Source of the DNA: Candidatus Omnitrophota bacterium
Lineage (GTDB): Bacteria > Ratteibacteria > UBA8468 > B48-G9 > DTJG01
Assembly: GCA_023484085.1 (NCBI GenBank)
Contig: JAMDAS010000017.1
Span: 1,430-65,429, forward strand
Length of the DNA stretch: 64,000 nucleotides
Reading direction: 5' to 3'
Below are positions 6,378 to 64,000 of this stretch, piece by piece (position 1 is the stretch's first letter; each line of letters begins with the position of its first letter). Position numbers and translations under genes: made by a program. The notes under the pieces were generated by a model. That model had not been told where the DNA came from. It made no database searches and worked only from the letters and a program-made list of their open reading frames with translations.

Positions 6378-6381
6378 TAAA

Positions 6382-12481: not shown

Positions 12482-12494
12482 ATTATTCCTAATG

Positions 12495-48478: not shown

Positions 48479-48807
48479 TCTTTTTAGACAGAAAGGAAAT
48501 TGTCGTAATCAACCAAAGCTAATACCATGTTTTTAGAGGAATAAAAAAAATAATTCAGAATTTTTTTTCATATCAGGAATAGATTATGTAAATATTCAGT
48601 AAAAGGTATTCCAGTAAATAAAAATTTTTTACCGAACACCGAAATTTATAAATTAAATTCCATCTAAATTTTATTACATTCCTTTGCAAACTGTCAAAAA
48701 TTATTAACTACTATTATTCTATCCCCCTATTTTTTGTCAAGTATTTAGCAATCCATTGATACAAGCGGTTTTCAGAGGTTTTGAAAAAACCCGATTATAC
48801 CCAATCT

Positions 48808-49137: not shown

Positions 49138-49151
49138 AATAATTTCTCCTT

Positions 49152-49433
49152 TTAGTGATAATCAAGAATTTCAACGTTATAAGCGTTTCCGTTATGCCAC
49201 CTGAAACATATACGCCATTGGTCATTAATGCGAATACTATATTGGTTCGCCACACCATGGTGCAGTTTTTCCAAGCGGTTGCCTGGCGGAACGCGTAAAT
49301 CATCAAGTGTATCCGAGGCGTCCAAAACTAAAAGTTTTCGCAATGCGATTCGTTGTAAATCCGCAGAGAATCGTTTTGTAGCCTGTCGTTGAAAAACCCT
49401 CTCTGTTTCCCTGCAACGAAAACTTTTAATCAT
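49152..49433 (-). CDS. higB: HigB toxin (RelE/ParE family)
   Basis: MIKSFRCRETERVF...LRVPPGNRLEKL...QYSIRINDQWRICFRW...VEILDYH pattern. Confidence 0.75.
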   Translation of the reverse strand: MIKSFRCRETERVFQRQATKRFSADLQRIALRKLLVLDASDTLDDLRVPPGNRLEKLHHGVANQYSIRINDQWRICFRWHNGNAYNVEILDYH

Positions 49434-49645
49434 TTGTCATAATGATAACGCATACCGTTATTATTGTCAAGACCTCAAATTGCCTCAATTAAATCTGTAG
49501 TTGATAGCAACTGTTATTGTCAAGTCAAAAGTTTCAAAGAGATGAGAAGCGGATAATAAATATCCGATGTTTTCTCAAATGGCAGACCCGCAGTTTTAAG
49601 TGCAGTTTTCAGACGACGACAATTATATTTGACACAACGCGAAAT

Positions 49646-49676
49646 ATTTGACAAAATAAAAATATAGTTTTAAAAT
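49646..49676 (+). promoter_or_regulatory. Promoter-like box ATTTGACAAAATAAAAATATAGTTTTAAAAT upstream of hydrogenase module 1
   Basis: TTGACA ... TAAAAT with ~17-nt spacer. Near-identical box at 59959..59988 upstream of module 2. Confidence 0.45.
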
Positions 49677-49840
49677 GTTTTAAATAGATTCAATCATGAC
49701 GTATTTTTTCATCGGAATTTTTTTTGTAATATTTTGTGATTAAATTCACAATATACTACAAATATGATAATTTTAGTAATAATTCATAGACTTAAATGCA
49801 GCACAGGGCTATTTCAAACACACAATAAGGATTGTTTAAG

Positions 49841-51328: not shown

Positions 51329-51332
51329 AAAA

Positions 51333-53195
51333 ATGGTAAATAATAATTTACTTCTTCCAATCTGGGTTCCTGTTGTCTTTGCATTTGGCGTTTTTGTTTT
51401 CAACGGGAAAAAATGGCTCAGGGAAATATTTGCAGTTTTGGGCACCCTGATTTTTCTGTTTATAACGTGGAATCTTTTTTCTATCAGGGCCATGGACGTT
51501 TATTATAGGGTTCCATGGGCTGGTTTTGGTATGAGTTTTGATTTAAGGCTTTACTCTTTCAGCGGGTTCATTCTCCTATGGCTTGGCATCTTTACTTTGA
51601 TTGTTACACTTTTTTCAACTGTAAAACTTGTTAACCACCCAAGGGCAAATCTTTATTATACCTATATATTTTTGACAGCATGTTTTGGCAGCGGCGCGGT
51701 TCTTTCAAATAATTTTGTCCTTATGGTCTTTTTCTGGGAAGGGCTTTTACTTACTTTATATGGGTTTATCTGTCTTGGTGGCGAAAATTCTTACAGGACA
51801 GCGGTTAAAAGTCTGATTATAGTCGGCTTATGTGATTTTTCCATGATTCTTGGTATAGGAATTATATGGTTTCTTACCGGAACGTTTACAATGTCTAAAA
51901 TATCACTGGTTCCATCCGGTCCGGCAGCAGCTGCGTTTTTCCTTATGATGGCAGGGGCACTCGGAAAAGCAGGCGCTGTTCCTTTTCATACATGGATACC
52001 GGATGCTGCAGATGATGCGCCTGTAACCTTTATGGCTCTTATTCCTGCATCTATTGACAAGCTGATTGGCATTTATCTTCTTGTCAGACTCTGCCTGGAT
52101 TTTTTTGTCCTCAGGCTTAATGACCCTTTCAGTATTACGTTGATGGTAATAGGCGGCCTTACAATTTTAATTACAGGATTCATGGCTTTTATCCAGGATG
52201 ATTTTAAACGGATTCTTTCCTATTCCACAGTAAGCCAGGTGGGTTATATGATTCTCGGAATTGGAACTTTTCTGCCCGTTGGAATAACCGGCGGGTTATT
52301 CCTTATGCTTAATCATTCAATATATGAAAGCGGACTTTTTTTAAGTGCAGGGTCTATTGAACATAAAACAGGAACAACCCGGCTTAATAAGCTTGGAGGA
52401 CTGGGAAAACGTATGCCTGTTACTGCAGTATGTTTTATTATATTTGGTCTTTCAATTTCAGGTATATGGCCGTTTAACGGGTTTATTTCAAAAGAAATGA
52501 TTATTCATAGTTCTATAAATACAGGATGGACTATATTTGCATTATCGGCCTATATAGGAGCAATACTTACAGTTGCTTATATGCTTAAGGCAGGCCATAG
52601 TATATTTTTTGGTCCCGAACCATCAGGAACCAAACAGGTAAAAGAAAGTGAATCCTTATTGCTTATTCCTATGATCATTCTTGCATTTTTATGCATACTT
52701 TTCGGGCTTGATAGTAAGATGCCAATCAAGTTTTCCATCGCTCCTATTTTAAAGAGTCACTTTCCATTAGTAAATCTGAACTTCTACAGTCATGCTCTGT
52801 CAGTTTTTACTCCTGCTGCAGGAATTACCATACTGTGCATTATCATCGCCATTGCAATGTATTTTCTTGGCTGGAAAAAGAGCGGGGGAAAAGCCTCTGT
52901 TTCCTCTGAATCTTTGCGTTATGCCTTGATATTCAAGACGCTGTATGACATGGCTGAACGAAAGTTTTTTGATATTTATGAACAGGGAATAGTATTCCTG
53001 TCCGCTCTTTCAGAAGCTGTTTCCATTGTTTTTGACAGGGGAATGGATTATATTTATGAAACAGCGTTTGTTAATACAGGGAAGAAGATAACTTCTTTGT
53101 TGAAAAGTGCGCATAACGGGAAATATGCCAACTATCTTGCGTGGCTGATTGGAGGCTTGTTTATCGTGGCATGGATATTAATACTGAAATTCTGA
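51333..53195 (+). CDS. Complex I NuoL-like (MrpA-like) antiporter-type membrane subunit
   Basis: 620 aa. HTWIPDAADDAPVTFMALIPASIDKLIGIYLLVR motif. Confidence 0.75.
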   Translation: MVNNNLLLPIWVPVVFAFGVFVFNGKKWLREIFAVLGTLIFLFITWNLFSIRAMDVYYRVPWAGFGMSFDLRLYSFSGFILLWLGIFTLIVTLFSTVKLVNHPRANLYYTYIFLTACFGSGAVLSNNFVLMVFFWEGLLLTLYGFICLGGENSYRTAVKSLIIVGLCDFSMILGIGIIWFLTGTFTMSKISLVPSGPAAAAFFLMMAGALGKAGAVPFHTWIPDAADDAPVTFMALIPASIDKLIGIYLLVRLCLDFFVLRLNDPFSITLMVIGGLTILITGFMAFIQDDFKRILSYSTVSQVGYMILGIGTFLPVGITGGLFLMLNHSIYESGLFLSAGSIEHKTGTTRLNKLGGLGKRMPVTAVCFIIFGLSISGIWPFNGFISKEMIIHSSINTGWTIFALSAYIGAILTVAYMLKAGHSIFFGPEPSGTKQVKESESLLLIPMIILAFLCILFGLDSKMPIKFSIAPILKSHFPLVNLNFYSHALSVFTPAAGITILCIIIAIAMYFLGWKKSGGKASVSSESLRYALIFKTLYDMAERKFFDIYEQGIVFLSALSEAVSIVFDRGMDYIYETAFVNTGKKITSLLKSAHNGKYANYLAWLIGGLFIVAWILILKF

Positions 53196-53196
53196 C

Positions 53197-53356
53197 ATAA
53201 GTTATGGATTTTTCTTTACTCCGCCTAAAAGATTGGCGGACTATCGTGCTTTGAAAAAAACCACGACGCCTGTTTTTACCATATAGGTAGTTGCTTTCCA
53301 AAGAAGGCGGAGAGTATGCACAGGTAGTGCATGTTCTGTGCATAATCCAAACTTAT
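53197..53356 (+). repeat. Structured intergenic repeat, copy 1 (~160 bp)
   Basis: Near-identical to 54849..55008 and 59268..59426. Contains nested hairpins and terminal inverted repeats. Confidence 0.9.
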
Positions 53357-53385
53357 CATGGGTAAAGTTCAAATTATTTATAAAA

Positions 53386-54846
53386 ATGTTTATATTTATT
53401 GTTTTTCCTCTTGTAGGTGCAGGGATTATGCCCCTGCTCGGGAAATTATCAAAAAAGAAATGGCCTGATATTCTTTCTGCCATGGTACTTCTTATTCTAT
53501 TGGTATGTTCAGTCGTTATTTTTTCCCCTTCCCTTAAAGAACCGTGGCAGTATATCCAAAATGTGCATTTTTTAAATGAGCCTGTTCATATTAATCTTGC
53601 CCTTGACAGTTTTAACGGGCTTTTCCTTATTCTTATATCTTTTATCAGTTTTACTATCAGTCTTTTTTCCATAGACTATATGGAAATCTACGGGTCAAAG
53701 CAAATATATTATGCACTGCTTCTTGTTATTGTCGCAGCCCTGAATGGGCTGGTCCTTTCAAAAGACTTATTTGGCATATACATTTTTCTTGAGTCTGCCG
53801 CTATTGCATCATTTGGACTTGTTGCATTTAGCTTAGAAGCAGAAGCACTGGAGGGCGCCTATAAATATCTTTTGTTATCTGTAATTGCATCCGGATTTAT
53901 TCTTCTTGGTATAGTACTGTTGTTTGCCATAACAGGAAGTCTTTCCCTTGATGGAGTAAAAAAGGTAATGGAGATTGTTAATAACAAGTCTGTTATTACA
54001 CTCTGTTCTATTTTGTTTATCGTGGGTTTTGGACTGAAAACCGCCCTAGTTCCATTTCATTCATGGATGCCGGATGCATATACAAAAGCACCTGCAACGT
54101 TTCCTGCAATAAGTTCAGGGCTGATTATAAAAATTACAGGAATTTATGTTTTGGCAAGAATATTTTTTAATATGTTTCAAATAAATGCAGGGGTTTCTTC
54201 CGCTCTTCTGTTTTTGGGGATGTTTTCCATTATTGTGGGCACTTTTCTTGCATTAGGTCAGAAAGATATAAAAAGAATGCTTGCATATTCCTCTATAAGC
54301 CAGGTGGGATATATTATAGCAGGCTTTGGGGTTGGTACGGCTCTTGGCGTAATTGCAGCAATTTTCCAGCTTTTCAATCATTCAATATTCAAATCCCTGC
54401 TTTTTCTTAATGCAGGCTCACTGGAAAAATCAACAGGGACACAATCGCTTGATGAGATGGGGGGATTGGAGAAAAAAATGCCTGTTACAGCAACAACAAA
54501 TGCAGTTGGTCTGCTTTCTACTGCAGGTGTTCCTCCTTTGAACGGATTCTGGAGCAAACTGCTTATTATTATGGCGCTGCTCCAGGCGAAATTATATATT
54601 TATGCCATTATTGCAATCTTTATGAGTGTTCTTACCCTGTGGTATTTCCTGATTGTTCATCGTCAGGCGTTTTTTGGAAAATTAAATGAGAAATGGAGTA
54701 GCGTCAGGGAAGCACCCTTCTGGATGTCTCTCTCAATGATTATATTGGCCCTGGCGTGTTTTGTCATAGGTATTGCTTTTTACATTGTGCTTAAACGTTT
54801 TATCATACCGGCATCAGTACCGCTGGCTGGTTTTATTATGAAATAG
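53386..54846 (+). CDS. Complex I NuoM/N-like antiporter-type membrane subunit
   Basis: HSWMPDAYTKAPATFPAISSGLIIKITGIY motif. The ORF-track start at 53338 lies inside the repeat, so the start was moved to MFIFIVFPLVG. Confidence 0.7.
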   Translation: MFIFIVFPLVGAGIMPLLGKLSKKKWPDILSAMVLLILLVCSVVIFSPSLKEPWQYIQNVHFLNEPVHINLALDSFNGLFLILISFISFTISLFSIDYMEIYGSKQIYYALLLVIVAALNGLVLSKDLFGIYIFLESAAIASFGLVAFSLEAEALEGAYKYLLLSVIASGFILLGIVLLFAITGSLSLDGVKKVMEIVNNKSVITLCSILFIVGFGLKTALVPFHSWMPDAYTKAPATFPAISSGLIIKITGIYVLARIFFNMFQINAGVSSALLFLGMFSIIVGTFLALGQKDIKRMLAYSSISQVGYIIAGFGVGTALGVIAAIFQLFNHSIFKSLLFLNAGSLEKSTGTQSLDEMGGLEKKMPVTATTNAVGLLSTAGVPPLNGFWSKLLIIMALLQAKLYIYAIIAIFMSVLTLWYFLIVHRQAFFGKLNEKWSSVREAPFWMSLSMIILALACFVIGIAFYIVLKRFIIPASVPLAGFIMK

Positions 54847-54848
54847 AA

Positions 54849-55008
54849 ATAAGTTATAGATTTCTCTTTACTCCGCCTAAAAGATTGGCGGACTATCGTG
54901 CTTTGAAAAGAACCACGACGCCTGTTTTTACCATATAGGTAGTTGCTTTCCAAAGAAGGCGGAGAGTATGCACAGGTAGTGCATGTTCTGTGCATAATCC
55001 AAACTTAT
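54849..55008 (+). repeat. Structured intergenic repeat, copy 2
   Basis: See copy 1. Confidence 0.9.
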
Positions 55009-55027
55009 TATAATTTAAGGAAAGTAT

Positions 55028-55498
55028 ATGACTATATTTATTCTTATATTGCTGATAATTTTTTCAATTCTTGCTGTGTTTTTAAGGGACCTTTTAAAGG
55101 CTGCATTAAGTCTTGCAGCAGCAAGTATATGCCTAACAATTATATTTTTCCTACTTCATGCTTTTTATGCGGGGGTTTTTGAAATATCCGTTGTTGCAGG
55201 GCTCATAATAGTTCTTTTTGTAACAACGATTTCACTTACCAGGTCGGAAACACCTGTTAAAGAATCTCTGATGGCGTATTTTTTCTTTCCTATATTTTTT
55301 ATCCTTATTATAGGGGTTGATTTGATGATATATAAAAGATTTTCTATGGGTATCCCATCTGTTACCGGGACTATTTTCCATGGAAACTTTGGTGATGTTT
55401 TCTGGGGAAAAAGGTCTTTTGACCTGATTGGACAGGTTTGCATAATCTTTGCCGGGGTTTTTTCTGTTCTAACTCTTTTCAGGAGGAAAAATGAGTAA
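55028..55498 (+). CDS. NuoJ-like membrane subunit
   Basis: AALSLAAASICLTIIFFLLHAFYAGVFEISVVAGLIIVLFV resembles the NuoJ core (..A.F.A..e..VYaGAi.VLF). Confidence 0.5.
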   Translation: MTIFILILLIIFSILAVFLRDLLKAALSLAAASICLTIIFFLLHAFYAGVFEISVVAGLIIVLFVTTISLTRSETPVKESLMAYFFFPIFFILIIGVDLMIYKRFSMGIPSVTGTIFHGNFGDVFWGKRSFDLIGQVCIIFAGVFSVLTLFRRKNE

Positions 55499-55829
55499 TC
55501 CAGCAGGCTCGTTAACGTTATTAAACAGCCAGTGGCTTCTATACATGGGAATTGTCATTATTCTTGTATTTATTGGCATATATTGTCTTTTAACAATGAA
55601 AAATATTATAAAACTTTTAATCGGGATAGAGGTTTTTTCCAAAGGGATTTCTCTTGCAATCATTGCAACCGGGTTTGCAAAAAAGAACATCCTGCTTGCA
55701 CAGGGTATAATGATTACTTTTATCGTCATTGAAGTGGCCGTCATTGCAGTGGCTCTTGGTATAGTAATAAATATTTATAACAAGACAGGAAGTCTTGACA
55801 TAAGAAAGATAACCAAACTAAAAGGATAA
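55491..55829 (+). CDS. NuoK/MrpC-like membrane subunit
   Basis: 112 aa, 3 TM. LLIGIEVFSKGISLAIIATG resembles the NuoK signature. Confidence 0.65.
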   Translation: MSNPAGSLTLLNSQWLLYMGIVIILVFIGIYCLLTMKNIIKLLIGIEVFSKGISLAIIATGFAKKNILLAQGIMITFIVIEVAVIAVALGIVINIYNKTGSLDIRKITKLKG

Positions 55830-55831
55830 AA

Positions 55832-56167
55832 ATGGATAATAGTATAAAAATATTGCTTTCTCCGCCACTGGCATTTTTGTTTTTTTTATGTGTCTCTGCC
55901 GGAATATATAAAATTGCCGGTAAATTTTCCGCAAAGGGAAAACCATCACAGGGGAAACTAAAAACATATGTTGGCGGTGAGGACATACAGGGATATAAAA
56001 TACAGTTTGGATACAAATCCTTTTTCTTTGTCGCGATTTTCTTTACAATGATAGAAGTGTCAACTCTGGTTATTGCTACTATCCATAGCAGGTTTGTTCT
56101 TCTTGGAATGTTTTATCTTGCAATGATTTTTCTTGCAATTTTTGCGTTAATAACAAGGGAAACATAA
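55832..56167 (+). CDS. Small membrane subunit, NuoA-like
   Basis: 111 aa. TYVGGEDIQGY...FFFVAIFFTMIEVSTLVI resembles NuoA (pYEcG...flaiLFllFDvE). Confidence 0.4.
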   Translation: MDNSIKILLSPPLAFLFFLCVSAGIYKIAGKFSAKGKPSQGKLKTYVGGEDIQGYKIQFGYKSFFFVAIFFTMIEVSTLVIATIHSRFVLLGMFYLAMIFLAIFALITRET

Positions 56168-56170
56168 AAA

Positions 56171-56599
56171 ATGATAGAGAAAATTATTAAATGGTCACGA
56201 TTAAAATCTCCATGGGTTCTTCATCTTAACACAGGAGGATGCAATGCCTGTGATATTGAACTGCTTGCGGCGCTGATGCCCCGGTTTGACGTTGAAAGAT
56301 TCGGAATACTGTCAAAAGCCACACCCCGGCATGCGGATGTGCTTGTTTGTATAGGACCTTTGACACGTCAGACAAAAGACAGGGTGGTAAGAATATACGA
56401 ACAGATGCCTGAACCAAAATTTGTCATCGCTGTGGGTGCATGTGCAATGTCCGGCTGTGTGTACAGAGGGGCTTATAATATCGTAGGTGGTGTAGACCAG
56501 GTTCTTCCTGTAGATATGTATGTACCGGGATGTCCTGCAAGACCGGATGCAATAATTGATGGAATAGTAAAATTATTAACAAAGATTGGAAAGGGGTAA
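56171..56599 (+). CDS. [NiFe] hydrogenase group 4 small subunit (NuoB homologue)
   Basis: GGCNACDIE, GACAMSGC and PGCPARP proximal [4Fe-4S] Cys motifs. Confidence 0.85.
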   Translation: MIEKIIKWSRLKSPWVLHLNTGGCNACDIELLAALMPRFDVERFGILSKATPRHADVLVCIGPLTRQTKDRVVRIYEQMPEPKFVIAVGACAMSGCVYRGAYNIVGGVDQVLPVDMYVPGCPARPDAIIDGIVKLLTKIGKG

Positions 56600-57073
56600 A
56601 TGATGGAAAAGTCTCTTATAAGCAGGTTAAAAGAATTTTTAGCGGAAAAAATAGTTGAATCAGCAAATCCATCCAAAAGGAGAATATTCATAAAGGTGTT
56701 GCCTGAAAATCTTCCGGATACCATACAAATTTTGAAAGAAAAGACAGGTTTTACACATTTATCAACTATTACAGGCGTGGATAAAGGGGAAACGTTTGAA
56801 ATCCTGTATCATTTTGCCAATAAAATTGCTGTGCTGACAGTCAGGACAGAAGTCCCTGCAGGTAAACCGGAAATAAAAACAATTACGAAGATTATTCCAG
56901 GGGCAATTCTGTATGAAAGAGAACTCCAGGATATGTTTGGAATAAAGGTAATGGAAATTCCTGACCCGAGGCCACTTATCCTGCCTGATGGATGGCCTGA
57001 AGGTAATTATCCATTAAGAAAAAACTGGAAATACCAGAGGCCTGAGGAAATAATACCTGGAGGGGGAAAATAA
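56600..57073 (+). CDS. NuoC-like (30 kDa) hydrogenase subunit
   Basis: ERELQDMFGI...PDPRPLIL motif of the NuoC/HycE-N family. Confidence 0.75.
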   Translation: MMEKSLISRLKEFLAEKIVESANPSKRRIFIKVLPENLPDTIQILKEKTGFTHLSTITGVDKGETFEILYHFANKIAVLTVRTEVPAGKPEIKTITKIIPGAILYERELQDMFGIKVMEIPDPRPLILPDGWPEGNYPLRKNWKYQRPEEIIPGGGK

Positions 57074-58278
57074 TGTCTATAACCATACCCATTGGGCCAC
57101 AGCATCCTGCTCTAAAGGAGCCTATAAGCTTAAAGATGACGTTTGATGGGGAAATCATAAAAGATGCTGACATAAGACTCGGCTACAATCATAGAGGTCT
57201 TGAAAAGCTTTTTGAGGGTAAAAGTTATGTCCAAAACATTTATGTTACAGAAAGAATATGCGGGATATGTTCCCATTCCCATACAACCTGTTTTGTCAAT
57301 GGCGTTGAAAAACTTCTGGGTATTGAAATACCCAAACGGGCTTCGTACATAAGAATGCTTATTGGTGAACTTGAAAGGGTCCATAGCCATCTTTTATGGC
57401 TTGGTGTGGCTGGCCATGAAGCAGGGTTTGAATCATTTTTTATGTATACATGGAGGGACAGGGAGATTGTAATGGACATTCTTGAAGAATCTTCCGGCAA
57501 CAGGGTTCACTATGCCATAAATACCATCGGCGGGGTAAGAAGGGATATTGATGAAACACAAAGGACAAGAATCCTAAATTCCCTGAAAATCCTGAAAGAA
57601 AGAACAGACTATTATAAAAATCTGGGAACTACAGAGCCCAGTTTTGTAGCAAGACTGTCAGGCATAGGAATTCTTCCCAGGGAACAGGCTCTTTCTTTAT
57701 GCTCCGTAGGACCAACCCTTCGCGCCTCAAATATTGACATGGACGTAAGAAAAGATGACCCTTATCTTGCATATGATGAGGTTCCGTTTGAGGTATCTAC
57801 TGCTGATACATGCGATGTCCTTGGCAGAACAGTGGTAAGAATAAAAGAATTATTCCAGTCATACAATATTATAGAATATATTCTCAGGAACCTGCCTGCC
57901 GGGGATATAAAAGCAAAGGTGCCAAGAAAGGTTCCTGCAGGTGAGACTGTCAGCAGATATGAGGCTCCAAGGGGTGAAAACATCCACTATATAAAAAGTA
58001 ATGGAACAGAAAAACCGGAAAGACTGAAGGTAAGGGCTCCAACACTCGCCAATTATCCTGCTACGGTTGCAATGTTAAAAAATGGCTTTATTGCTGACAT
58101 ACCGCTTATATTTGCCGCCATAGACCCATGTATATGCTGTGCTGAACGAATGGTAGAGGTAAAAGATACAAAAACAGGAAGAGCGGAAATAAAGACATTT
58201 GATGAATTAAAAAAATATTCCAGGGATTTTTATAAAAACCACAAAAAAATAAAAAAGGATACCGTATGGCCATTCTAA
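57073..58278 (+). CDS. [NiFe] hydrogenase group 4 large subunit (NuoD homologue, Ni-binding Cys retained)
   Basis: N-terminal L1 motif RICGICSHSH and C-terminal L2 motif DPCICCAER are both present. Confidence 0.85.
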   Translation: MSITIPIGPQHPALKEPISLKMTFDGEIIKDADIRLGYNHRGLEKLFEGKSYVQNIYVTERICGICSHSHTTCFVNGVEKLLGIEIPKRASYIRMLIGELERVHSHLLWLGVAGHEAGFESFFMYTWRDREIVMDILEESSGNRVHYAINTIGGVRRDIDETQRTRILNSLKILKERTDYYKNLGTTEPSFVARLSGIGILPREQALSLCSVGPTLRASNIDMDVRKDDPYLAYDEVPFEVSTADTCDVLGRTVVRIKELFQSYNIIEYILRNLPAGDIKAKVPRKVPAGETVSRYEAPRGENIHYIKSNGTEKPERLKVRAPTLANYPATVAMLKNGFIADIPLIFAAIDPCICCAERMVEVKDTKTGRAEIKTFDELKKYSRDFYKNHKKIKKDTVWPF

Positions 58279-59234
58279 AAACATTTTTTTATCTTTTGGT
58301 ATATCCGGGGTTAGTGTTTCTAATTGTATATTCTCTTTTTTGTGAATGGTTTGACAGGAAAACGTATGCGCGTCTGCAAAACAGGAGAGGTCCCCTGCAT
58401 ACAGGAAAAGCAGGACTGCTGCAGCCTGCAGCAGATTTAATAAAGCTTTTTTCCAAAGAGGACATTGTCCCTGAAAAAGCAGACAGGATTATGTTTACGG
58501 CACTTCCTGTTTTTGGTCTTGCAATAATTTTAACTTCCGCCATGTACCTGCCCATCTGGAATTATTCCATGACAAAAACAGGTTTTAATTCTTTTCCCGG
58601 GGACATTATAGTGCTTATATACCTTTTAAGTCTTCCCACAATAATACTATTTCTTGCAGGATGGCATTCAACAAGCTTTTTCTCAACTATCGGAGGGGTA
58701 AGGGTGATAACAATGTTTTTTGGCTATGAAATCCCTTTGCTTTTATCTGTCCTGAGTCCTGCTATCCTTGCAGGCTCATGGCGTCTTGCTGAAATTGCAC
58801 AATTTTTTCAGGCTAATCCCGGACTGCTTTCTGTCAACGTTATAGGGTTTTTTATTGCTCTTGCAGCACTCCAGGCAAAGCTTGAAAGAACCCCGTTTGA
58901 CATACCCCATGCAGAAACTGAAATCGTTGGAGGCACATTTACAGAATATACAGGAAGGAAACTTGCATTTTTCAGGCTTATAACCGACATAGAAATGGTT
59001 GTAGGCAGCGGTCTGATTGCAACAGTTTTTCTTGGTGGCTTTCCAGGCGGGATATTCTCATCTTTTATCTGGTTTATTATAAAAACACTTTTTGTCATAT
59101 TTCTGCTTTCTGTAATAAAAGCGGCATTTTCAAGGCTCAGGATTGACCAGATGGTCAGGTTCTCATGGTATATTCTTGCTCCATTGGGAATACTGCAGAT
59201 TTTTATAACGTTGCTTGTTAAACTGAAATTCTGA
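58266..59234 (+). CDS. NuoH-like membrane subunit (HycD/EchB/MbhM homologue)
   Basis: RRGPLHTGKAGLLQPAADLIKLF N-terminal region and 8-TM pattern of NuoH. Confidence 0.8.
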   Translation: MAILKTFFYLLVYPGLVFLIVYSLFCEWFDRKTYARLQNRRGPLHTGKAGLLQPAADLIKLFSKEDIVPEKADRIMFTALPVFGLAIILTSAMYLPIWNYSMTKTGFNSFPGDIIVLIYLLSLPTIILFLAGWHSTSFFSTIGGVRVITMFFGYEIPLLLSVLSPAILAGSWRLAEIAQFFQANPGLLSVNVIGFFIALAALQAKLERTPFDIPHAETEIVGGTFTEYTGRKLAFFRLITDIEMVVGSGLIATVFLGGFPGGIFSSFIWFIIKTLFVIFLLSVIKAAFSRLRIDQMVRFSWYILAPLGILQIFITLLVKLKF

Positions 59235-59267
59235 TATAAGAAATATGGACAATGAACAAAGTAAGAG

Positions 59268-59426
59268 ATAACTTTGGGTTTCTCTTTTCTCCGCCTAAAA
59301 GATTGGCGGACTATCGTGCTTTGAAAAGAACCACGACGCCTGTTTTTACCATATAGGTAGTTGCTTTCCAAAGAAGGCGGAGAGTATGCACAGGTAGTGA
59401 TTGTTCTGTGCATAACCCAAAATTAT
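59268..59426 (+). repeat. Structured intergenic repeat, copy 3 (most diverged; changes fall in loops or are compensatory)
   Basis: See copy 1. Confidence 0.9.
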
Positions 59427-59468
59427 CATGGGAAAGACAATCCAAATTTATCGGAAAGGAGTATTTTA

Positions 59469-59891
59469 ATGGGAAAGAAATTAGGATTTTTTATACCGGA
59501 ACTCTGGAGGCATATTTTTAAAAAACCGGCAACGGTTGACTATCCTTTTGAAAAGCTCAAAGTACCAAAAGGATTCAGAGGTTTACCGGTATTAAACACG
59601 GAATTATGTATTGTATGCAAAGCCTGTGAAAGGGATTGTCCTGCTGAAGCCATTGAAATCAGAACTATTTTGGAAGAAGAAAAAAAATTCCAGATGACCA
59701 TTCATAATGACAGATGTGTACATTGCGGCCAGTGTGCAGACGTATGTCCTACAAATGCCATGACACTAAACAATGAATTTGAACTGTCTGAGCCTTCACG
59801 ATGGAATATGAAGTTTAGATATGCATATACAAGACAATTAAGAAAAAAATCTGATAGGAACGTAGATGAAAAAGATAAAGAAATATTATAA
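59469..59891 (+). CDS. NuoI-like 2x[4Fe-4S] ferredoxin subunit (MbhN/EchF homologue)
   Basis: CIVCKACERDCP and CVHCGQCADVCP motifs. Start at MGKKLGFF after GGAAAGGAG. The ORF-track start at 59361 is inside the repeat. Confidence 0.8.
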   Translation: MGKKLGFFIPELWRHIFKKPATVDYPFEKLKVPKGFRGLPVLNTELCIVCKACERDCPAEAIEIRTILEEEKKFQMTIHNDRCVHCGQCADVCPTNAMTLNNEFELSEPSRWNMKFRYAYTRQLRKKSDRNVDEKDKEIL

Positions 59892-59958
59892 TATCAGTAA
59901 TATTTGTTCATTATTTCACAAAGTATATTTTTTTATAAAAAAATTTATTTATTAAAAA

Positions 59959-59988
59959 ATTTGACAAAATAAAATATAGTGTTAAAAT
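59959..59988 (+). promoter_or_regulatory. Promoter-like box ATTTGACAAAATAAAATATAGTGTTAAAAT upstream of hydrogenase module 2
   Basis: Near-identical to the box at 49646..49676. Confidence 0.45.
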
Positions 59989-60123
59989 TAAAATTAACAA
60001 TCTGAATTACCCTTGATAATTCAGATATAAAAGACTTATGGCAGTGAATGCAACATAAAAGTAAAAACAGATAATTTTTAAAAAAAATAAATTTTTTTAG
60101 ATATATTGTGAGTGTGTTCACAA

Positions 60124-61215
60124 ATGGATACATATTTCATAAATAAAAAAGAATGGAATAAATATATCGGGGAAAAAAGTGCGGAAATAAAAACTTATGC
60201 TCCATATGAAAGTACTGAACCTCTGCTCTCAAATGGAACACAATTTGTAAAAACGGACAACAACCAATCTTCCTCACTGTTTTGGAAAACAGTTAATCCT
60301 GAAAATGTTGATAATGTAGTCTATGACAGGATGCATCCTGTTGCACCATTAAAGATTTTTTTCTTTCCATTCAAGGAGAGAATACTTCCTGCAATAGGCA
60401 ATGTAGAACCTTTTATCATTATTGGGGCAACAAACTGCGACCTTCTTGCACTTGATACAACAGATAAGGTTTTCATAAACAATGATTATAAAGACCCGAC
60501 ATATGGTTTGAGGAGAGAACAAGCCACCATTATCTCCATTGACTGCCAGAAACCCGATGAATATTGTTTTTGTGAGTTATGGGGCAACAGAACATACCCT
60601 GAGAAGAACTTTGACCTGAATCTTACATATATGGAAGATGGTTTTATTGTGGAAATCGGCTCAGAAAAAGGTGAAAAAATAATCAGGGGGATTGCTAAAA
60701 AGGAAAAGACTGCTGAGAACAGTATGAAAATCAGGGAATCTATCAGAAAACAAACAAAAAATATTGTCCAGGCAAATAATTCTAAATATAAATTATGTGA
60801 AATGGGACACATAAGAAATGACATACCCGCCTGCATGGAAAATAAGATTGAATCCCCCGGATGGAAATCAGGGGCATTTGACTGCGTCCAGTGTGGAGCA
60901 TGTAACGCATCCTGTCCTACATGTGTATGTTTTTTACTTGAAGATTTTAGTTCACGGGTGTCTTTTTCAAAGACAAAAATATGGGACTATTGTCTTTATC
61001 AGTCTTATGCAAAAATGGCATCAGGTGTTTCCCCCAGGTCGCTTTTATGGGAAAGGTATGCCAACAGGCTTCTCTGTAAATACAGGTACATGGTAAAGAA
61101 TTTGGGAATAGTGGGCTGTACCGGATGCGGCAGATGTATTTCAGGCTGCCCCGGGAAAATAGATAAAAGAAAAATTCTTGAAGAGGTATTTAAAGAAAAT
61201 GGAGAATATATATAA
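60124..61215 (+). CDS. Fe-S subunit, sulfhydrogenase beta (HydB)/anaerobic sulfite reductase AsrA-like
   Basis: CVQCGACNASCPTC and CTGCGRCISGCP ferredoxin-type motifs plus additional Cys (CQKPDEYCFC). ~360 aa. Confidence 0.6.
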   Translation: MDTYFINKKEWNKYIGEKSAEIKTYAPYESTEPLLSNGTQFVKTDNNQSSSLFWKTVNPENVDNVVYDRMHPVAPLKIFFFPFKERILPAIGNVEPFIIIGATNCDLLALDTTDKVFINNDYKDPTYGLRREQATIISIDCQKPDEYCFCELWGNRTYPEKNFDLNLTYMEDGFIVEIGSEKGEKIIRGIAKKEKTAENSMKIRESIRKQTKNIVQANNSKYKLCEMGHIRNDIPACMENKIESPGWKSGAFDCVQCGACNASCPTCVCFLLEDFSSRVSFSKTKIWDYCLYQSYAKMASGVSPRSLLWERYANRLLCKYRYMVKNLGIVGCTGCGRCISGCPGKIDKRKILEEVFKENGEYI

Positions 61216-62029
61216 ACCGGTAAAATGCGAGGTTTCAGACGTTTTTAAGGAATCATCCACTATAAAAACAGTACGTCTTACACCCGTGGAGCAGTTTTCT
61301 TTCCAGGCGGGCCAGTTTATTTCTTTTACTGTCCCTGGAGTCGGGGAAGCTCCTTTTACACCGTCTTCTTCCCCTTTTGAAAAAAATTATATTGATGTAA
61401 CCGTCATGAAAACAGGCAGGGTAACAGGTGCAATCCATGAACTTAAAAAGGGGGATATAACAGGTATAAGAGGACCCTATGGGAAGCCCTACCCTCTTGA
61501 AAAATTTAACAATAAGAATATTTTGCTTGTAGGCGGAGGTGTAGGTCTTGCTCCTCTTCGTGCTTTATTTTATGCACTTGTTGAAACACTTGATAACTAT
61601 AAATCCATTGTTTTTTGCTGTGGAGCAAAAACACCTGATGACTTTATCTTTAAACAGGAGGTTTTTGAAACCTGGCTGTCAGAAAAATGGCTTTCATCCA
61701 GGGGGCAGGTTTGTTTCCGTATTACCGTTGATAAAAAAGACGCAGGATGGAATTACGGCGATGGTGTGGTAACAAAAACACTCGACGGATTGCCCTGCAG
61801 CCCGGAAAATGCCATCGTATGCGGACCTCCCATTATGATGAAGTTTACGACACTGAAACTGTTGGATGTGGGATATAAACCTGAAAATATTTATCTGTCA
61901 ATGGAAAGAAAGATGTATTGTGCAATCGGCCAGTGCAGGCATTGTCTTATCGGAGACAAGTTTGTGTGCAAAGACGGACCTGTGTTTACGTACGAGGAAA
62001 TAAAAGGACAGCCAAAAATATGGGCATAA
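61199..62029 (+). CDS. FAD/NAD(P)H-binding [2Fe-2S] oxidoreductase subunit, sulfhydrogenase gamma (HydG)/AsrB/PyrK-like
   Basis: Ferredoxin-reductase-type FAD domain (RLTPVEQFSFQAGQFISF), NAD(P)-binding LLVGGGVGLAPL, C-terminal 2Fe-2S CAIGQCRHC...C. Alternative start at 61178. Confidence 0.65.
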   Translation: MENIYKPVKCEVSDVFKESSTIKTVRLTPVEQFSFQAGQFISFTVPGVGEAPFTPSSSPFEKNYIDVTVMKTGRVTGAIHELKKGDITGIRGPYGKPYPLEKFNNKNILLVGGGVGLAPLRALFYALVETLDNYKSIVFCCGAKTPDDFIFKQEVFETWLSEKWLSSRGQVCFRITVDKKDAGWNYGDGVVTKTLDGLPCSPENAIVCGPPIMMKFTTLKLLDVGYKPENIYLSMERKMYCAIGQCRHCLIGDKFVCKDGPVFTYEEIKGQPKIWA

Positions 62030-62078
62030 TGAATTCATAACAATGCAAGAAATAGATTAAAAGAAGTAGTGAAACAAG

Positions 62079-62570
62079 ATGAAAAAATTATACATAGATT
62101 ACGAAAAATGTCAGTCATGTCCAAAGTGTGTTGTAAATTGCAGATATCCATATCACCCGGATAACAATGGAATAAAATATCTGCATGAGCTTATATCCTT
62201 TGAGTTTGTCTGCCGCAGGTGTAAGGACCATCCATGTGTAAATGCATGTGTTTATAATGCCCTGAAAAGAGAAAATGATGTTATCGTGAGAAGCAAATTA
62301 AGGTGCGTTTCATGTAAAAGCTGTGCCATGGCATGTCCATTTGGCACAATATTTTATGATTCAATACCATATATCGTAAGTAATTGCGATTTCTGTATTG
62401 AAAACCTGCAGACTGAGCAATTGCCTTTATGCGCAAAGAAATGCCCTGAATACGCAATAAGGTATATAGATGAGGAAGAAATAAAAAATGAGAAATATCT
62501 TGAAAGACTTGGACAGCATCTTATCGTAAAGGTGTTTAACTGGCTCAAATTCCAGGAAATAAAAAAATGA
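62079..62570 (+). CDS. Polyferredoxin (HycB-like, ~4 [4Fe-4S] motifs)
   Basis: CQSCPKCVVNC, CRRCKDHPCVNAC, CVSCKSCAMACP, CDFC...CAKKCP. Confidence 0.7.
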   Translation: MKKLYIDYEKCQSCPKCVVNCRYPYHPDNNGIKYLHELISFEFVCRRCKDHPCVNACVYNALKRENDVIVRSKLRCVSCKSCAMACPFGTIFYDSIPYIVSNCDFCIENLQTEQLPLCAKKCPEYAIRYIDEEEIKNEKYLERLGQHLIVKVFNWLKFQEIKK

Positions 62571-63472
62571 ATATTTTAAACGTTGTTCTATTGTCTATCG
62601 TATGGTCTATTTTTCTTATAGCAGCTGGATTGCTTATACTTGGAGTTGAAAGAAAAATTACGGCAAGACTGCAGTGGCGGGTCGGACCACCATGGTGGCA
62701 GAATTTTACTGATATTATAAAACTTTCAGCCAAGGAAACGTCCATACCTGAACGTGCGAACAGGTTTATTTTTATTTTTGCCCCGATTGTTTCTTTTTTG
62801 GGAGCACTTGCTGCAGGCGTTATCATAATTTTTTCTCTTCTGTATGGAATAAGTTTCCGGGGAGACTTGATTACCGTTATTTTTCTTTTGACATTACCGT
62901 ATTCAGGTCTTATTCTTGGCGGCAGTTCTTCAGGAAATGCTCTCGCCTCTGTGGGCTCATCAAGAGCGCTTAAACTCACTCTTGCCTGTGAACTACCCTT
63001 TATTGCATCGCTGGTTCTGATTATTTTAAAATCAAATCTTTCAACGTCTATCTATAATATCGTGAACATGCAAAAAAATACGGGCATTAATTTCTTCTCA
63101 GTATCAGGGTTCATTGCATTTTTTGTAGCATTCTGGGGAAGCATAGGAAAACTCGGGATTGTCCCTTTTGACCTTGCTGAAGCGGATACGGAAATTGCAG
63201 GAGGGGCACTTTTTGAATATTCGGGAATTCTTCTTGGCTTTTTCAAACTGACAAAAGCTGTTTTGTTTATCGTGGTACCACTTTTACTCATTGCATCTTT
63301 TTTTGGAAGTTTTAACGTATTGGCATGGATTTTGGAATATCTTGTCATATTTTTACTCCTGATTATCGTAAAAAATACGAATCCAAGACTCAGGATTGAC
63401 CAGTCGCTTCGTTTTTTCTGGAAAGTAATAATAATACTTATAATTGCAAGTTTTGTTTTTATGAAAATATAA
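62567..63472 (+). CDS. NuoH-like membrane subunit, second copy
   Basis: LGVERKITARLQWRVGPPWWQNFTDIIKL N-terminal region of the NuoH/HycD family. Confidence 0.75.
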   Translation: MNILNVVLLSIVWSIFLIAAGLLILGVERKITARLQWRVGPPWWQNFTDIIKLSAKETSIPERANRFIFIFAPIVSFLGALAAGVIIIFSLLYGISFRGDLITVIFLLTLPYSGLILGGSSSGNALASVGSSRALKLTLACELPFIASLVLIILKSNLSTSIYNIVNMQKNTGINFFSVSGFIAFFVAFWGSIGKLGIVPFDLAEADTEIAGGALFEYSGILLGFFKLTKAVLFIVVPLLLIASFFGSFNVLAWILEYLVIFLLLIIVKNTNPRLRIDQSLRFFWKVIIILIIASFVFMKI

Positions 63473-63473
63473 A

Positions 63474-63890
63474 ATGAATATTAAAACAAGAGCTTTAAAA
63501 AAATCCTTGTGGGTATATCATCTTTCCACTGGTTCATGTAACAATTGCGACATAGAGATTCTTGATTGTCTCAGTCCAAGATTTGACATTGAAAGGTTCG
63601 GGATGGTTCTTGTGGGAAGTCCAAAGCATGCAGACGTTCTTCTTATAACAGGTATCGTAACAAAAAAGAACCTTGAAAGAGTAAAAGAGGTTTACCATGA
63701 GACACCAAAACCTTGTTTTGTCGTTGCCGTAGGAACATGCGCCTGCTCAGGAAATATGTTCAGGTCTGGATATAATATGGCAGGACCGCTAAAAAACGTT
63801 ATTCCCGTAGACGTTTTTATACCGGGATGCCCTCCCGGTCCTGCAGCAATAATATCAGCCGTAGTAAAACTTTTAAATAAACTGAAGTGA
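63474..63890 (+). CDS. [NiFe] hydrogenase group 4 small subunit (NuoB homologue), second copy
   Basis: TGSCNNCDIE, GTCACSG, PGCPPGP. Confidence 0.8.
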   Translation: MNIKTRALKKSLWVYHLSTGSCNNCDIEILDCLSPRFDIERFGMVLVGSPKHADVLLITGIVTKKNLERVKEVYHETPKPCFVVAVGTCACSGNMFRSGYNMAGPLKNVIPVDVFIPGCPPGPAAIISAVVKLLNKLK

Positions 63891-63907
63891 GGAGAATAAG
63901 GAAAAAT

Positions 63908-64000
63908 ATGAAACTTAACGTTTTGCTAAAAGAAAATTTAGGGAATATGGTGAAAAAGTTTGAAGAGCCTGCTGATAAAAGAATATATATCACAATTGAC
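63908..64000 (+). CDS. NuoC-like subunit, second copy, 3' end beyond window
   Basis: ATG after GGAGAATAAGGA. Position after the NuoB homologue mirrors module 1. Only 31 aa visible. Confidence 0.4.
   Translation, partial: MKLNVLLKENLGNMVKKFEEPADKRIYITID

What the first reader, a model, noticed from the sequence alone, without database searches (positions are those of the whole stretch)
60124..64000. Module 2: sulfhydrogenase-type NAD(P)H/FAD/Fe-S subunits encoded in line with membrane-bound group-4 hydrogenase subunits
Module 2 starts 220 bp after module 1, behind its own copy of the shared promoter box. It encodes a HydB/AsrA-like Fe-S protein, then a HydG/AsrB/PyrK-like protein with FAD and NAD(P)-binding motifs and a C-terminal 2Fe-2S site, then a HycB-like polyferredoxin. 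NuoH-like, NuoB-like (all proximal-cluster Cys present) and NuoC-like genes follow and run off the window. In known systems the beta-gamma pair partners with soluble group-3b hydrogenases, while NuoH/B/C homologues belong to membrane-bound group-4 enzymes. Having them in one apparent operon suggests a membrane-bound, ion-translocating hydrogenase that couples directly to NAD(P)H, with the beta-gamma pair standing in for NuoEFG. I do not recognise this architecture as described.
Basis: partly seen in the sequence, partly recalled or inferred. Interest (0 to 1): 0.7.

Follow-up and report, generated by a model that had tools for sequence, protein, structure and literature searches.

The report
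NAD(P)H-type module on membrane hydrogenase
This Omnitrophota operon joins the NAD(P)H/FAD-binding subunit pair of soluble "sulfhydrogenases" to a membrane-bound nickel-iron hydrogenase, a gene arrangement conserved in many uncultured bacterial phyla whose enzymes are routinely assumed to use ferredoxin; this particular copy has lost the ion-pumping genes its relatives carry.

Summary
Window 60124-64000 encodes, tightly packed on the + strand, a sulfhydrogenase-type beta subunit, a gamma subunit (FAD/NAD(P)/2Fe-2S), a 16-Cys HycB-like polyferredoxin, then NuoH-, NuoB- and NuoC-like genes. An identical public contig supplies the rest. It shows a NuoD-like large subunit with both Ni-ligand Cys pairs, a HycF-like 2x[4Fe-4S] protein, a HypA-like protein and an Rrf2 regulator. 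No antiporter-like gene follows.

The gene order is not chance. 54 of 56 species-representative genomes with enough flank keep beta-gamma-HycB-NuoH-B-C-D. All 48 with longer flank continue into Mrp antiporter genes. The window copy is therefore a derived, Mrp-deleted member.

The most likely function is a membrane-anchored [NiFe] hydrogenase wired to NAD(P)(H), built like formate hydrogenlyase with beta-gamma in place of formate dehydrogenase. Relatives are probably ion-coupled; this copy probably is not.

The literature files such Omnitrophota and Cloacimonadota enzymes as uncharacterised "group 4g, ferredoxin-coupled (putative)". Only one paper, on Saganbacteria in 2019, noted adjacent AsrA/AsrB-like genes. 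I rate it a new variant of a known kind, with no biochemical test yet.

The parts
59955..59988 (+). Promoter-like site of module 2 (TTGACA-16-TAAAAT with extended TG), lying inside the box shared with module 1 (49642-49661).
   Evidence: repeat D10; 11 of 12 consensus matches; two zero-mismatch matches to the box; 5 matches at up to 3 mismatches against 0.42 expected; alignment of the two upstream regions.
60000..60026 (.). Perfect 10-bp inverted repeat with a 7-nt spacer (ATCTGAATTA-N7-TAATTCAGAT), just downstream of the -10 element. Candidate operator or 5'-UTR hairpin; function not tested.
   Evidence: 12-pair stem; only match in the window; 0.01 expected.
60124..61215 (+). Beta subunit, 363 aa, homologue of HydB/ShyB/AsrA. 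Multi-cluster Fe-S protein with 15 invariant Cys.
   Evidence: Fer4_22, E 1e-24; P. furiosus sulfhydrogenase-1 beta, 9nez_B, E 3e-42; HydB/ShyB/AsrA hits, all far below the equivalog cut-offs; Cys conservation.
61199..62029 (+). Gamma subunit, 276 aa, homologue of HydG/ShyC/AsrB. FAD- and NAD(P)-binding domains plus a C-terminal [2Fe-2S] site. Its start overlaps the beta stop by 17 nt.
   Evidence: three Pfam domains; 9nez_C, E 7e-52; next best NfnA 4ylf, 5e-18; the four 2Fe-2S Cys are 100% conserved; GGVGxxP and GExPF..SS are at least 90% conserved in 78 sequences.
62079..62570 (+). HycB-like polyferredoxin, 163 aa, 16 Cys (up to four [4Fe-4S] clusters). No Tat or signal sequence was seen on reading the N-terminus (no predictor was run), so probably cytoplasmic. 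Proposed connector between beta and the HycF-like subunit.
   Evidence: Fer4_11; best hits are the AOR polyferredoxin 8c0z_C, HDCR HycB3/HycB4 7qv7 and FHL HycB 7z0s_B; 12 Cys invariant; the first CxxCxxC is present in about 55% of relatives.
62567..63472 (+). NuoH/MbhM/HycD-like integral membrane subunit, 301 aa. Its start overlaps the HycB-like stop by 4 bp. It is the only membrane subunit in this operon.
   Evidence: NADHdh, E 9e-60; no terminator at the junction.
63474..63890 (+). NuoB-like hydrogenase small subunit, 138 aa, with the four Cys of the proximal [4Fe-4S] cluster.
   Evidence: Oxidored_q6, E 4e-31; C22, C25, C89 and C119 are 100% conserved; NCBI protein MCL5674696.1, Candidatus Omnitrophota MAG.
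63908..64000 (+). 5' part of the NuoC-like gene, which runs off the window. The operon continues on the identical contig L001 (window coordinate = L001 coordinate + 60989): NuoC-like 63908-64330; [NiFe] large subunit 64332-65516; HycF-like 2x[4Fe-4S] protein 65513-66136; HypA-like 66160-66429; Rrf2 regulator 66426-66866.
   Evidence: 0 mismatches in 3011 bp; best hits MbhL 6cfw_L, 1e-90, and HycE 7z0s_E, 2e-86; HycF 7z0s_F is the best hit.

Best explanation
[quoted passage not shown] Its cytoplasmic electron wire ends in a sulfhydrogenase-type NAD(P)H/FAD module.

The inferred path is: NAD(P)H <-> FAD and [2Fe-2S] in gamma <-> Fe-S clusters of beta <-> three or four [4Fe-4S] clusters of the HycB-like protein <-> two [4Fe-4S] clusters of the HycF-like protein <-> the proximal cluster of the NuoB-like subunit <-> the Ni-Fe site in the NuoD-like subunit. 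The complex sits on the NuoH-like membrane subunit. In architecture it is a formate hydrogenlyase in which beta-gamma replaces formate dehydrogenase.

In nearly all relatives an Mrp antiporter block lies between the large-subunit gene and the HycF-like gene. The family enzyme is therefore probably an ion-coupled NAD(P)H:H+ oxidoreductase. It could use the ion gradient to push H2 formation from NAD(P)H, or conserve energy during H2-dependent NAD(P)+ reduction.

In this Omnitrophota genome the whole Mrp block has been cleanly deleted. This copy is therefore most likely a membrane-anchored but uncoupled NAD(P)(H)-linked hydrogenase, functionally close to a soluble group-3b enzyme. It is transcribed from a promoter box shared with the neighbouring 11-subunit hydrogenase (module 1).

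Shown here: gene content, cofactor ligands, homologies, operon packing, conserved synteny and the absence of Mrp genes. Inferred: physical assembly, NAD(P)H as the substrate, direction of the reaction, and coupling.
For: - Gene content and domains.
- Beta and gamma are true homologues of P. furiosus sulfhydrogenase-1 beta and gamma. The FAD, NAD(P) and 2Fe-2S motifs and 15 beta Cys are conserved in about 70 orthologues.
- The large subunit keeps the L1 and L2 Cys motifs. L1 is 100% and L2 97% conserved in 64 sequences. It is closest to MbhL and HycE. A HypA-like gene follows.
- The connectors resemble the FHL connectors. The HycB-like protein hits HycB/HycB3/HycB4. The NuoI-like protein has HycF as its best hit, including the C-terminal CxxC...CxxC.
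- The genes are packed with overlaps of 4 to 17 bp and there is no terminator above chance expectation.
- Synteny: 54 of 56 GTDB species-representative loci keep beta-gamma-HycB-NuoH-B-C-D, and 48 of 48 with at least 7 kb of flank continue into Mrp genes. The record titles name Omnitrophota, Ratteibacteria, Cloacimonadota, Planctomycetota, Marinimicrobia/Fidelibacterota, Elusimicrobia, Chloroflexota, Caldisericota, Latescibacterota and others.
- In the full operon the first gene (beta) and the last gene (HycF-like) belong to the same electron wire and flank the Mrp genes. This argues for a single complex.
- Beta-gamma is a portable module. More distant homologues sit with group-3b delta-alpha (L087) or with HdrABC-MvhD (L086).
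- Mrp deletion in this copy: compared with L002 (beta 75% identical) and L088 (HycF-like 77% identical), both of which retain Mrp.
Against: - There is no biochemical, structural or transcript evidence for any member.
- NAD(P)H-driven H2 formation is endergonic under standard conditions (about -320 mV against -414 mV; textbook values). The physiological direction is therefore unclear.
- NADH versus NADPH preference could not be read from the sequence.
- Beta and gamma score far below the NCBIfam equivalog cut-offs, so their substrate could differ from that of sulfhydrogenase.
- Ferredoxin could still dock on the HycB-like or HycF-like clusters, as the literature assumes for group 4g.
- No known group-4 hydrogenase works without an antiporter-like subunit (my own knowledge; the library search gave no example). 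The Mrp-less copy may therefore be impaired, or may depend on genes elsewhere in the genome that I could not see.
Confidence: 0.55

Rival explanations
1. It is a ferredoxin-dependent Mbh-type hydrogenase, as current MAG annotations assume. Beta-gamma-HycB would then be a separate soluble oxidoreductase, for example an NAD(P)H:ferredoxin or NAD(P)H:acceptor enzyme, that is only co-transcribed with it.
For: HydDB lists group 4g as "ferredoxin-coupled (putative)" (PMC5037454). Omnitrophota and Cloacimonadota clusters are annotated EC 1.12.7.2. The HycF-like and HycB-like clusters could accept ferredoxin directly.
Against: The gene order is invariant across phyla. The HycB-like stop overlaps the NuoH-like start. 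HycB-type proteins are built-in connectors in FHL and HDCR. Beta and the HycF-like gene bracket the Mrp genes in the full operon. The cited annotations list only MbhJ/K/L and do not mention the upstream genes.
Confidence: 0.18
2. It is an electron-confurcating or dual-donor enzyme. [quoted passage not shown]
For: The Fe-S wire is long and branched, with room for two entry points. It would solve the thermodynamic problem of making H2 from NAD(P)H. The gamma family includes NfnA, part of a bifurcating enzyme.
Against: In Nfn the bifurcating flavin sits on the other subunit, NfnB, which is absent here (established knowledge of NfnAB). No second flavoprotein is encoded in the operon.
Confidence: 0.1
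3. It is a sulfur- or polysulfide-linked enzyme. Beta-gamma would act as in "sulfhydrogenase" or AsrAB, passing electrons from H2 or NAD(P)H to S0, polysulfide or sulfite rather than simply exchanging with NAD(P).
For: Beta and gamma hit HydB/ShyB/AsrA and HydG/ShyC/AsrB. P. furiosus sulfhydrogenase reduces S0 in vitro (cited in PMC9723716).
Against: No AsrC-type siroheme subunit and no sulfur-handling gene is in the operon. The large subunit keeps its Ni ligands, unlike the sulfur-reducing MBS/Mbx.
Confidence: 0.07
4. In this genome module 2 is a decaying remnant, inactive after loss of its Mrp module.
For: Every informative relative keeps Mrp. The HypA-like gene is truncated to 89 aa and lacks the C-terminal Zn-site Cys.
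Against: All the operon genes are intact open reading frames. All cofactor ligands are present, the NuoD/HycF-like junction is a neat 4-bp overlap, and a strong promoter-like site is retained.
Confidence: 0.08

Closest known systems
Formate hydrogenlyase-1 of E. coli (group 4a; PDB 7z0s)
   Same: The soluble wire is built the same way: a substrate module, then a HycB-type polyferredoxin, a HycF-type 2x[4Fe-4S] protein, a NuoB-like small subunit and a NuoD-like Ni-Fe subunit on a NuoH-like membrane subunit. HycF is the best structural-database hit of the NuoI-like protein, and HycB is among the best hits for the polyferredoxin. HycE is the second-best hit for the large subunit.
   Different: The substrate module is beta-gamma (FAD/NAD(P)) instead of the molybdenum formate dehydrogenase FdhF. 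The NuoC-like and NuoD-like genes are separate here. There is no HycC-type antiporter-like subunit in this locus, and relatives carry an Mrp block instead.
Mrp-Mbh of Pyrococcus furiosus (group 4d; PDB 6cfw)
   Same: The large subunit is closest to MbhL (E 1e-90). Homologues of MbhJ/K/L/M/N are present. Relatives have the Mrp-type membrane module.
   Different: MBH takes electrons from free ferredoxin and has no beta, gamma or HycB-type subunits. The window copy lacks the whole Mrp module.
Soluble group-3b sulfhydrogenase SHI/SHII (alpha-beta-gamma-delta; PDB 9nez)
   Same: Beta and gamma are its closest solved homologues (E 3e-42 and 7e-52). The Fe-S, FAD and NAD(P) motifs are the same.
   Different: The hydrogenase partner is a group-4 NuoB/NuoD-type pair on a membrane subunit, reached through two extra ferredoxin-like proteins, not the group-3 delta/alpha pair. 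A genuine group-3b cluster is shown in L087.
HydDB [NiFe] group 4g, and the Saganbacteria RX5A/RX6A clusters (Matheus Carnevali et al. 2019, PMC6349859)
   Same: Omnitrophota and Cloacimonadota hydrogenases with MbhJ-K-L next to Mrp are classed as 4g. Saganbacteria RX5A has AsrA/AsrB-like + CooF-like + Mrp-Mbh genes, described as a possible "oxidoreductase module". RX6A has one cluster with the module but without Mrp, plus a separate Mrp-Mbh, which is the same split seen in this window.
   Different: The Saganbacteria clusters also carry an FdhH-like molybdopterin protein, absent here but present in L079 and L080. The 4g assignment of this particular large subunit was not tested, because HydDB is not available here.
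Respiratory complex I (Nuo)
   Same: Homologues of NuoB, C, D, H and I carry an NAD(P)H-oxidising flavoprotein module at the tip of an Fe-S wire.
   Different: The flavoprotein is FNR/PyrK-type gamma with FAD, not NuoF with FMN. The acceptor site is Ni-Fe (protons) rather than quinone. This copy has no NuoA/J/K/L/M/N partners.

Membership tests
Group 4 (energy-converting) [NiFe] hydrogenase | NuoD-like large subunit with the two N-terminal (L1, RxCGxCxxxH) and two C-terminal (L2, DPCxxC) Ni-Fe ligand Cys. | tested here: met
   L001 3343-4527 has RICGICSNSH and DPCYCCTER. L1 is 100% and L2 97% conserved in 64 orthologues. Pfam NiFeSe_Hases + Complex1_49kDa.
Group 4 (energy-converting) [NiFe] hydrogenase | NuoB-like small subunit with one proximal [4Fe-4S] cluster, plus NuoC-like, NuoI-like and NuoH-like subunits. 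| tested here: met
Group 4 (energy-converting) [NiFe] hydrogenase | At least one antiporter-like (NuoL/M/N, MrpA/D) subunit encoded with the enzyme. | tested here: not met
   None lies between beta and Rrf2 or in the 3.9 kb beyond. It is present in 48 of 48 relatives with enough flank and in all informative metagenome loci.
Group 4 (energy-converting) [NiFe] hydrogenase | H2 turnover coupled to ion translocation. | not testable with these tools
   Needs membrane or proteoliposome assays.
HydDB subgroup 4g | Large subunit falls in the 4g sequence cluster of the HydDB classifier. | not testable with these tools
   No HydDB is available here. This is inferred only from published 4g calls for Omnitrophota and Cloacimonadota MbhJ-K-L-Mrp clusters.
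Group 3b sulfhydrogenase (alpha-beta-gamma-delta) | HydB-type beta and HydG-type gamma subunits. | tested here: inconclusive
   They are clear homologues, but score 158 and 185 bits against equivalog cut-offs of 750 and 650. They form a sister clade, not orthologues.
Group 3b sulfhydrogenase (alpha-beta-gamma-delta) | Group-3 delta small subunit and alpha large subunit directly following beta-gamma; a soluble enzyme. | tested here: not met
   The partners are NuoB/NuoD-type subunits with a NuoH-like membrane subunit. Compare L087, a true 3b cluster.
Formate hydrogenlyase (group 4a) | FdhF molybdopterin formate dehydrogenase, and a fused NuoCD-type HycE. | tested here: not met
   There is no molybdopterin gene in the operon, and NuoC-like and NuoD-like are separate genes. 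The variants L079 and L080 do have a degenerate molybdopterin-like gene and a fused NuoCD.
Anaerobic sulfite reductase AsrABC | AsrC siroheme catalytic subunit next to AsrA and AsrB. | tested here: not met
   Every gene of the operon is assigned to another family. The AsrA and AsrB models are hit below their cut-offs.

The most novel reading that the evidence does not exclude
The conserved beta-gamma-HycB-Mbh-Mrp operon encodes a reversible, Na+/H+-translocating NAD(P)H:proton oxidoreductase. In effect this would be a "complex I that reduces protons". It would give anaerobes a third route, besides confurcating [FeFe] hydrogenases and Rnf+Ech, to make H2 from NAD(P)H, or to make NAD(P)H from H2 with energy conservation.

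It would also be an independent recruitment of an NAD(P)H module by a complex-I ancestor. Some lineages even add a NuoG-like molybdopterin-fold subunit.

In this genome the Mrp-less arm might instead share the membrane arm of the adjacent, co-regulated 11-subunit hydrogenase.
Probability: 0.3. Interest if true: 0.85.

Novelty: new variant of a known kind. Interest (0 to 1): 0.62.

Why it matters
Group 4g hydrogenases are reported in many uncultured anaerobic phyla and are routinely entered into metabolic models as ferredoxin-dependent, H2-evolving ion pumps. No member has been characterised (PMC5037454, PMC7886697).

If the conserved beta-gamma-HycB module makes them NAD(P)(H)-linked, redox and energy budgets inferred for Omnitrophota, Cloacimonadota, Marinimicrobia/Fidelibacterota, Ratteibacteria and others would change. 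A direct, gradient-coupled NAD(P)H/H2 link would be a new bioenergetic solution, and a useful comparison for how complex I acquired its NADH module.

The Mrp-deleted copy in this window is a natural "minimal" version. It could show what the peripheral arm does without the pump.

Tried and rejected
- An Rfam scan of 48000-64000 found nothing relevant.
- NCBIfam gave no equivalog-level assignment for beta or gamma.
- The genome-contig scan did not recover the source genome or any relative closer than 48% identity. It therefore gave no taxonomy for the window. Exact-sequence look-up did: a Candidatus Omnitrophota MAG, proteins MCL5674687-698.
- I tested whether the antiporter-like genes of module 1 are the relocated Mrp block of module 2. 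They are not. They are only 38-46% identical to the Mrp proteins of the closest relative, whereas beta is 75% identical. Module 1 also has a Nuo-type (A/J/K/L/M/N) arm rather than an Mrp-type arm.
- Mbx/Ehr-like (non-hydrogenase) reading: rejected, because the Ni ligands are intact.
- A periplasmic orientation of the HycB-like protein is unlikely. I saw no Tat or signal motif at its N-terminus (MKKLYIDYEKC...) on reading the sequence; no predictor was run.
- Literature searches found no paper describing an NAD(P)H-dependent Mrp-Mbh other than the Saganbacteria note.
- The paper behind PDB 9nez was not in the library.
- NADH versus NADPH specificity could not be decided from the alignment with sulfhydrogenase-1 gamma.

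Full report
**What is in the window.** On the + strand, 233 bp after the last gene of module 1 (stop at 59891), six genes follow one another with overlaps or gaps of at most 49 nt.
- Beta: 60124-61215.
- Gamma: 61199-62029.
- HycB-like polyferredoxin: 62079-62570.
- NuoH-like: 62567-63472.
- NuoB-like: 63474-63890.
- NuoC-like: starts at 63908 and runs off the window.

Pfam assigns Fer4_22 to beta. It assigns FAD_binding_6 + NAD_binding_1 + DHODB_Fe-S_bind to gamma, Fer4_11 to the polyferredoxin, NADHdh to the NuoH-like protein and Oxidored_q6 to the NuoB-like protein.

A promoter-like site, TTGACA-16-TAAAAT with an extended TG, lies at 59961-59988. It sits inside a 20-nt box, AAAWATTTGACAAAATAAAA, that recurs only upstream of module 1 at 49642. 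The scan found 5 matches at up to 3 mismatches against 0.42 expected, and the two zero-mismatch matches are these two sites. No terminator-like site above chance lies inside the gene row. The HycB-like stop overlaps the NuoH-like start by 4 bp.

**What lies beyond the window.** An exact-protein look-up of the NuoB-like protein returned a 9.8-kb public contig, L001. It is identical to window 60990-64000, with 0 mismatches in 3011 bp. It continues with five more genes:
- a NuoC-like gene;
- a 394-aa large subunit carrying RICGICSNSH and DPCYCCTER, so both pairs of Ni-Fe ligand Cys are present;
- a 207-aa 2x[4Fe-4S] protein;
- an 89-aa HypA-like protein;
- an Rrf2-family regulator.

Unrelated sugar-metabolism genes come next. 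No antiporter-like gene follows. The source is a Candidatus Omnitrophota MAG (NCBI proteins MCL5674687-698, contig of 87,939 bp).

**Homologies.** Beta and gamma have as their best solved relatives the beta and gamma subunits of P. furiosus sulfhydrogenase 1 (9nez, E 3e-42 and 7e-52). For gamma the next best hit is NfnA, at 5e-18. NCBIfam places both nearest HydB/ShyB/AsrA and HydG/ShyC/AsrB, but far below the equivalog cut-offs. They are a sister clade, not orthologues.

The large subunit is closest to MbhL (6cfw, 1e-90) and HycE (7z0s, 2e-86). The polyferredoxin resembles HycB-type connectors: the AOR polyferredoxin, HDCR HycB3/HycB4 and FHL HycB. The NuoI-like protein's best hit is HycF, including its C-terminal Cys pairs. 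The soluble arm is therefore built like that of formate hydrogenlyase, with beta-gamma where FdhF would sit.

**Is the linkage meaningful?** A profile of 55 beta homologues retrieved 80 loci from species-representative genomes. I annotated them by blastp against the module-2 proteins and the Mrp proteins of the closest relative.
- 54 of 56 loci with at least 5 kb downstream have gamma, HycB, NuoH, NuoB, NuoC and NuoD in that order. The other two have a fused NuoCD gene.
- 48 of 48 loci with at least 7 kb downstream continue into Mrp-type genes.
- The record titles name Omnitrophota, Ratteibacteria, Cloacimonadota, Planctomycetota classes, Neomarinimicrobiota/Fidelibacterota, Elusimicrobia, Anaerolineales, Caldisericota, Latescibacterota, KSB1, Eisenbacteria, Fermentibacteria and others.

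A metagenome scan with the HycF-like protein showed the full canonical operon. Its order is beta, gamma, HycB, NuoH, NuoB, NuoC, NuoD, then Mrp (A, MbhD, B, C, D, E, F...), then HycF-like, with HypA and Rrf2 sometimes following. A minority variant has NuoD, HycF-like, then Mrp. The first and last genes of the operon thus belong to one electron wire that brackets the Mrp genes.

Cofactor ligands are conserved across about 70 orthologues.
- Beta: 15 Cys.
- Gamma: four 2Fe-2S Cys, plus the GGVGxxP and GExPF..SS motifs.
- HycB-like: 12 Cys.
- NuoB-like: four Cys.
- Large subunit: the L1 and L2 motifs.

More distant beta-gamma pairs sit with a genuine group-3b delta/alpha pair (L087) or with HdrABC-MvhD (L086). 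Beta-gamma therefore behaves as a portable NAD(P)H module.

**What is special about this copy.** The two closest relatives keep Mrp. In L002 beta is 75% identical, and in L088 the HycF-like protein is 77% identical, with the order MrpF, HycF-like, HypA.

The window lineage therefore lost the entire Mrp block. What remains is a neat NuoD/HycF-like junction with a 4-bp overlap. The antiporter-like genes of module 1 are not the missing block. They are only 38-46% identical to the relative's Mrp proteins. Module 1 has a Nuo/Fpo-type layout: three antiporter-like subunits, then NuoJ-, K- and A-like, then B, C, D (Ni-Fe), H and I. The claim that module 2 is ion-translocating is therefore unsupported for this locus, although it is plausible for the family.

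**Mechanism.** The best-supported reading has electrons passing in this order: NAD(P)(H), FAD and [2Fe-2S] in gamma, the beta clusters, the HycB-like clusters, the HycF-like clusters, the NuoB-like cluster, and finally the Ni-Fe site, all on a NuoH-like anchor. Physical assembly, substrate, direction and coupling are inferred, not shown. NAD(P)H-driven H2 formation is uphill under standard conditions. In Mrp-containing relatives the ion gradient could drive it, or H2 oxidation could pump ions. The Mrp-less copy would behave like a membrane-tethered group-3b enzyme.

The rivals are:
- a ferredoxin-dependent Mbh with an unrelated co-transcribed soluble enzyme;
- a dual-donor or confurcating enzyme;
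- a sulfur-linked enzyme;
- a decaying remnant.

Each is scored in the rival-explanations section.

[quoted passage not shown] Loh et al. state that no 4g enzyme has been characterised (PMC7886697). Omnitrophota and Cloacimonadota studies list MbhJ/K/L "adjacent to Mrp" as group 4g, EC 1.12.7.2, without mentioning beta or gamma (PMC8542988; PMC10066038).

Only Matheus Carnevali et al. 2019 describe AsrA/AsrB-like and CooF-like genes, plus an FdhH-like gene, next to an "enigmatic" Mrp-Mbh in Saganbacteria RX5A. They also describe a split arrangement in RX6A (PMC6349859). Other searches found no description of an NAD(P)H-dependent Mrp-Mbh. Most subscription journals are not covered by the library.

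**Verdict.** It is a new variant of a known kind: a modular group-4 hydrogenase with a new input module. The variant is widespread but overlooked, and functionally untested. The local copy is an atypical member without Mrp.

Noticed in passing
window 53194-53359, 54846-55011, 59264-59435 (+ strand): A 166-172-nt repeat is present in three copies (93-100% identical). Each sits in an intergenic gap inside the module 1 operon. It folds into a multi-hairpin structure (-50 to -57 kcal/mol) and has no Rfam match. It also produces spurious minus-strand ORFs beginning MHRTCTTCAYSPP... It may be a MITE/REP-like insertion or an intra-operon RNA element.
   Followed up: partly
window 49832-59891: Module 1 has the 11-subunit Nuo/Fpo-type layout: three antiporter-like subunits, then NuoJ-, K- and A-like, then B, C, D, H and I. 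Its NuoD-like subunit keeps the Ni-Fe ligands (RICGICSHSH...DPCICCAER). This resembles the "Hfo" Fpo-like hydrogenase proposed for Bathyarchaeia (PMC7886697) and the complex-I-like hydrogenases of Asgard archaea (bioRxiv 10.1101/2024.07.04.601786), here in a bacterium.
   Followed up: partly
L001 5171-5440 (equivalent to window coordinates 66160-66429, beyond the window): The HypA-like gene after module 2 is only 89 aa. It keeps the N-terminal MHE Ni-binding start but matches HypA profiles only over positions 1-63, and it lacks the C-terminal Zn-site Cys pairs.
   Followed up: no
window 60000-60026: A perfect 10-bp inverted repeat with a 7-nt spacer lies just downstream of the module 2 promoter-like site. 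It is the only match in the window. It is a candidate operator, perhaps for the Rrf2 regulator encoded at the end of the operon, or a 5'-UTR hairpin.
   Followed up: partly
L079 about 11700-13326 and L080 about 5990-7600: In a Phycisphaerae MAG and an Anaerolineales MAG the operon carries an extra gene of about 535 aa between gamma and HycB. It is a degenerate molybdopterin-oxidoreductase-like (FdhH/NuoG-like) gene. These loci also have a fused NuoCD large subunit, like the Saganbacteria RX5A cluster in the literature.
   Followed up: partly
L004 / L009, 13688-16216: In a Ratteibacteria MAG about 2.5 kb of unrelated genes (two Amidase_3 and one Tricorn-like) is inserted between the NuoB-like and NuoC-like genes of the otherwise intact operon.
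   Followed up: no
L086 3284-9859: A more distant beta-gamma pair (about 30% identity) is encoded directly after HdrC/B/A-like, MvhD-like and ferredoxin-like genes. This suggests the same NAD(P)H module also serves heterodisulfide-reductase-type complexes.
   Followed up: no
L029: A contig titled Vermiphilus sp. (Dependentiae, normally reduced intracellular bacteria) carries the full beta-gamma-HycB-Mbh-Mrp operon. This could be mis-binning or horizontal transfer.
   Followed up: no
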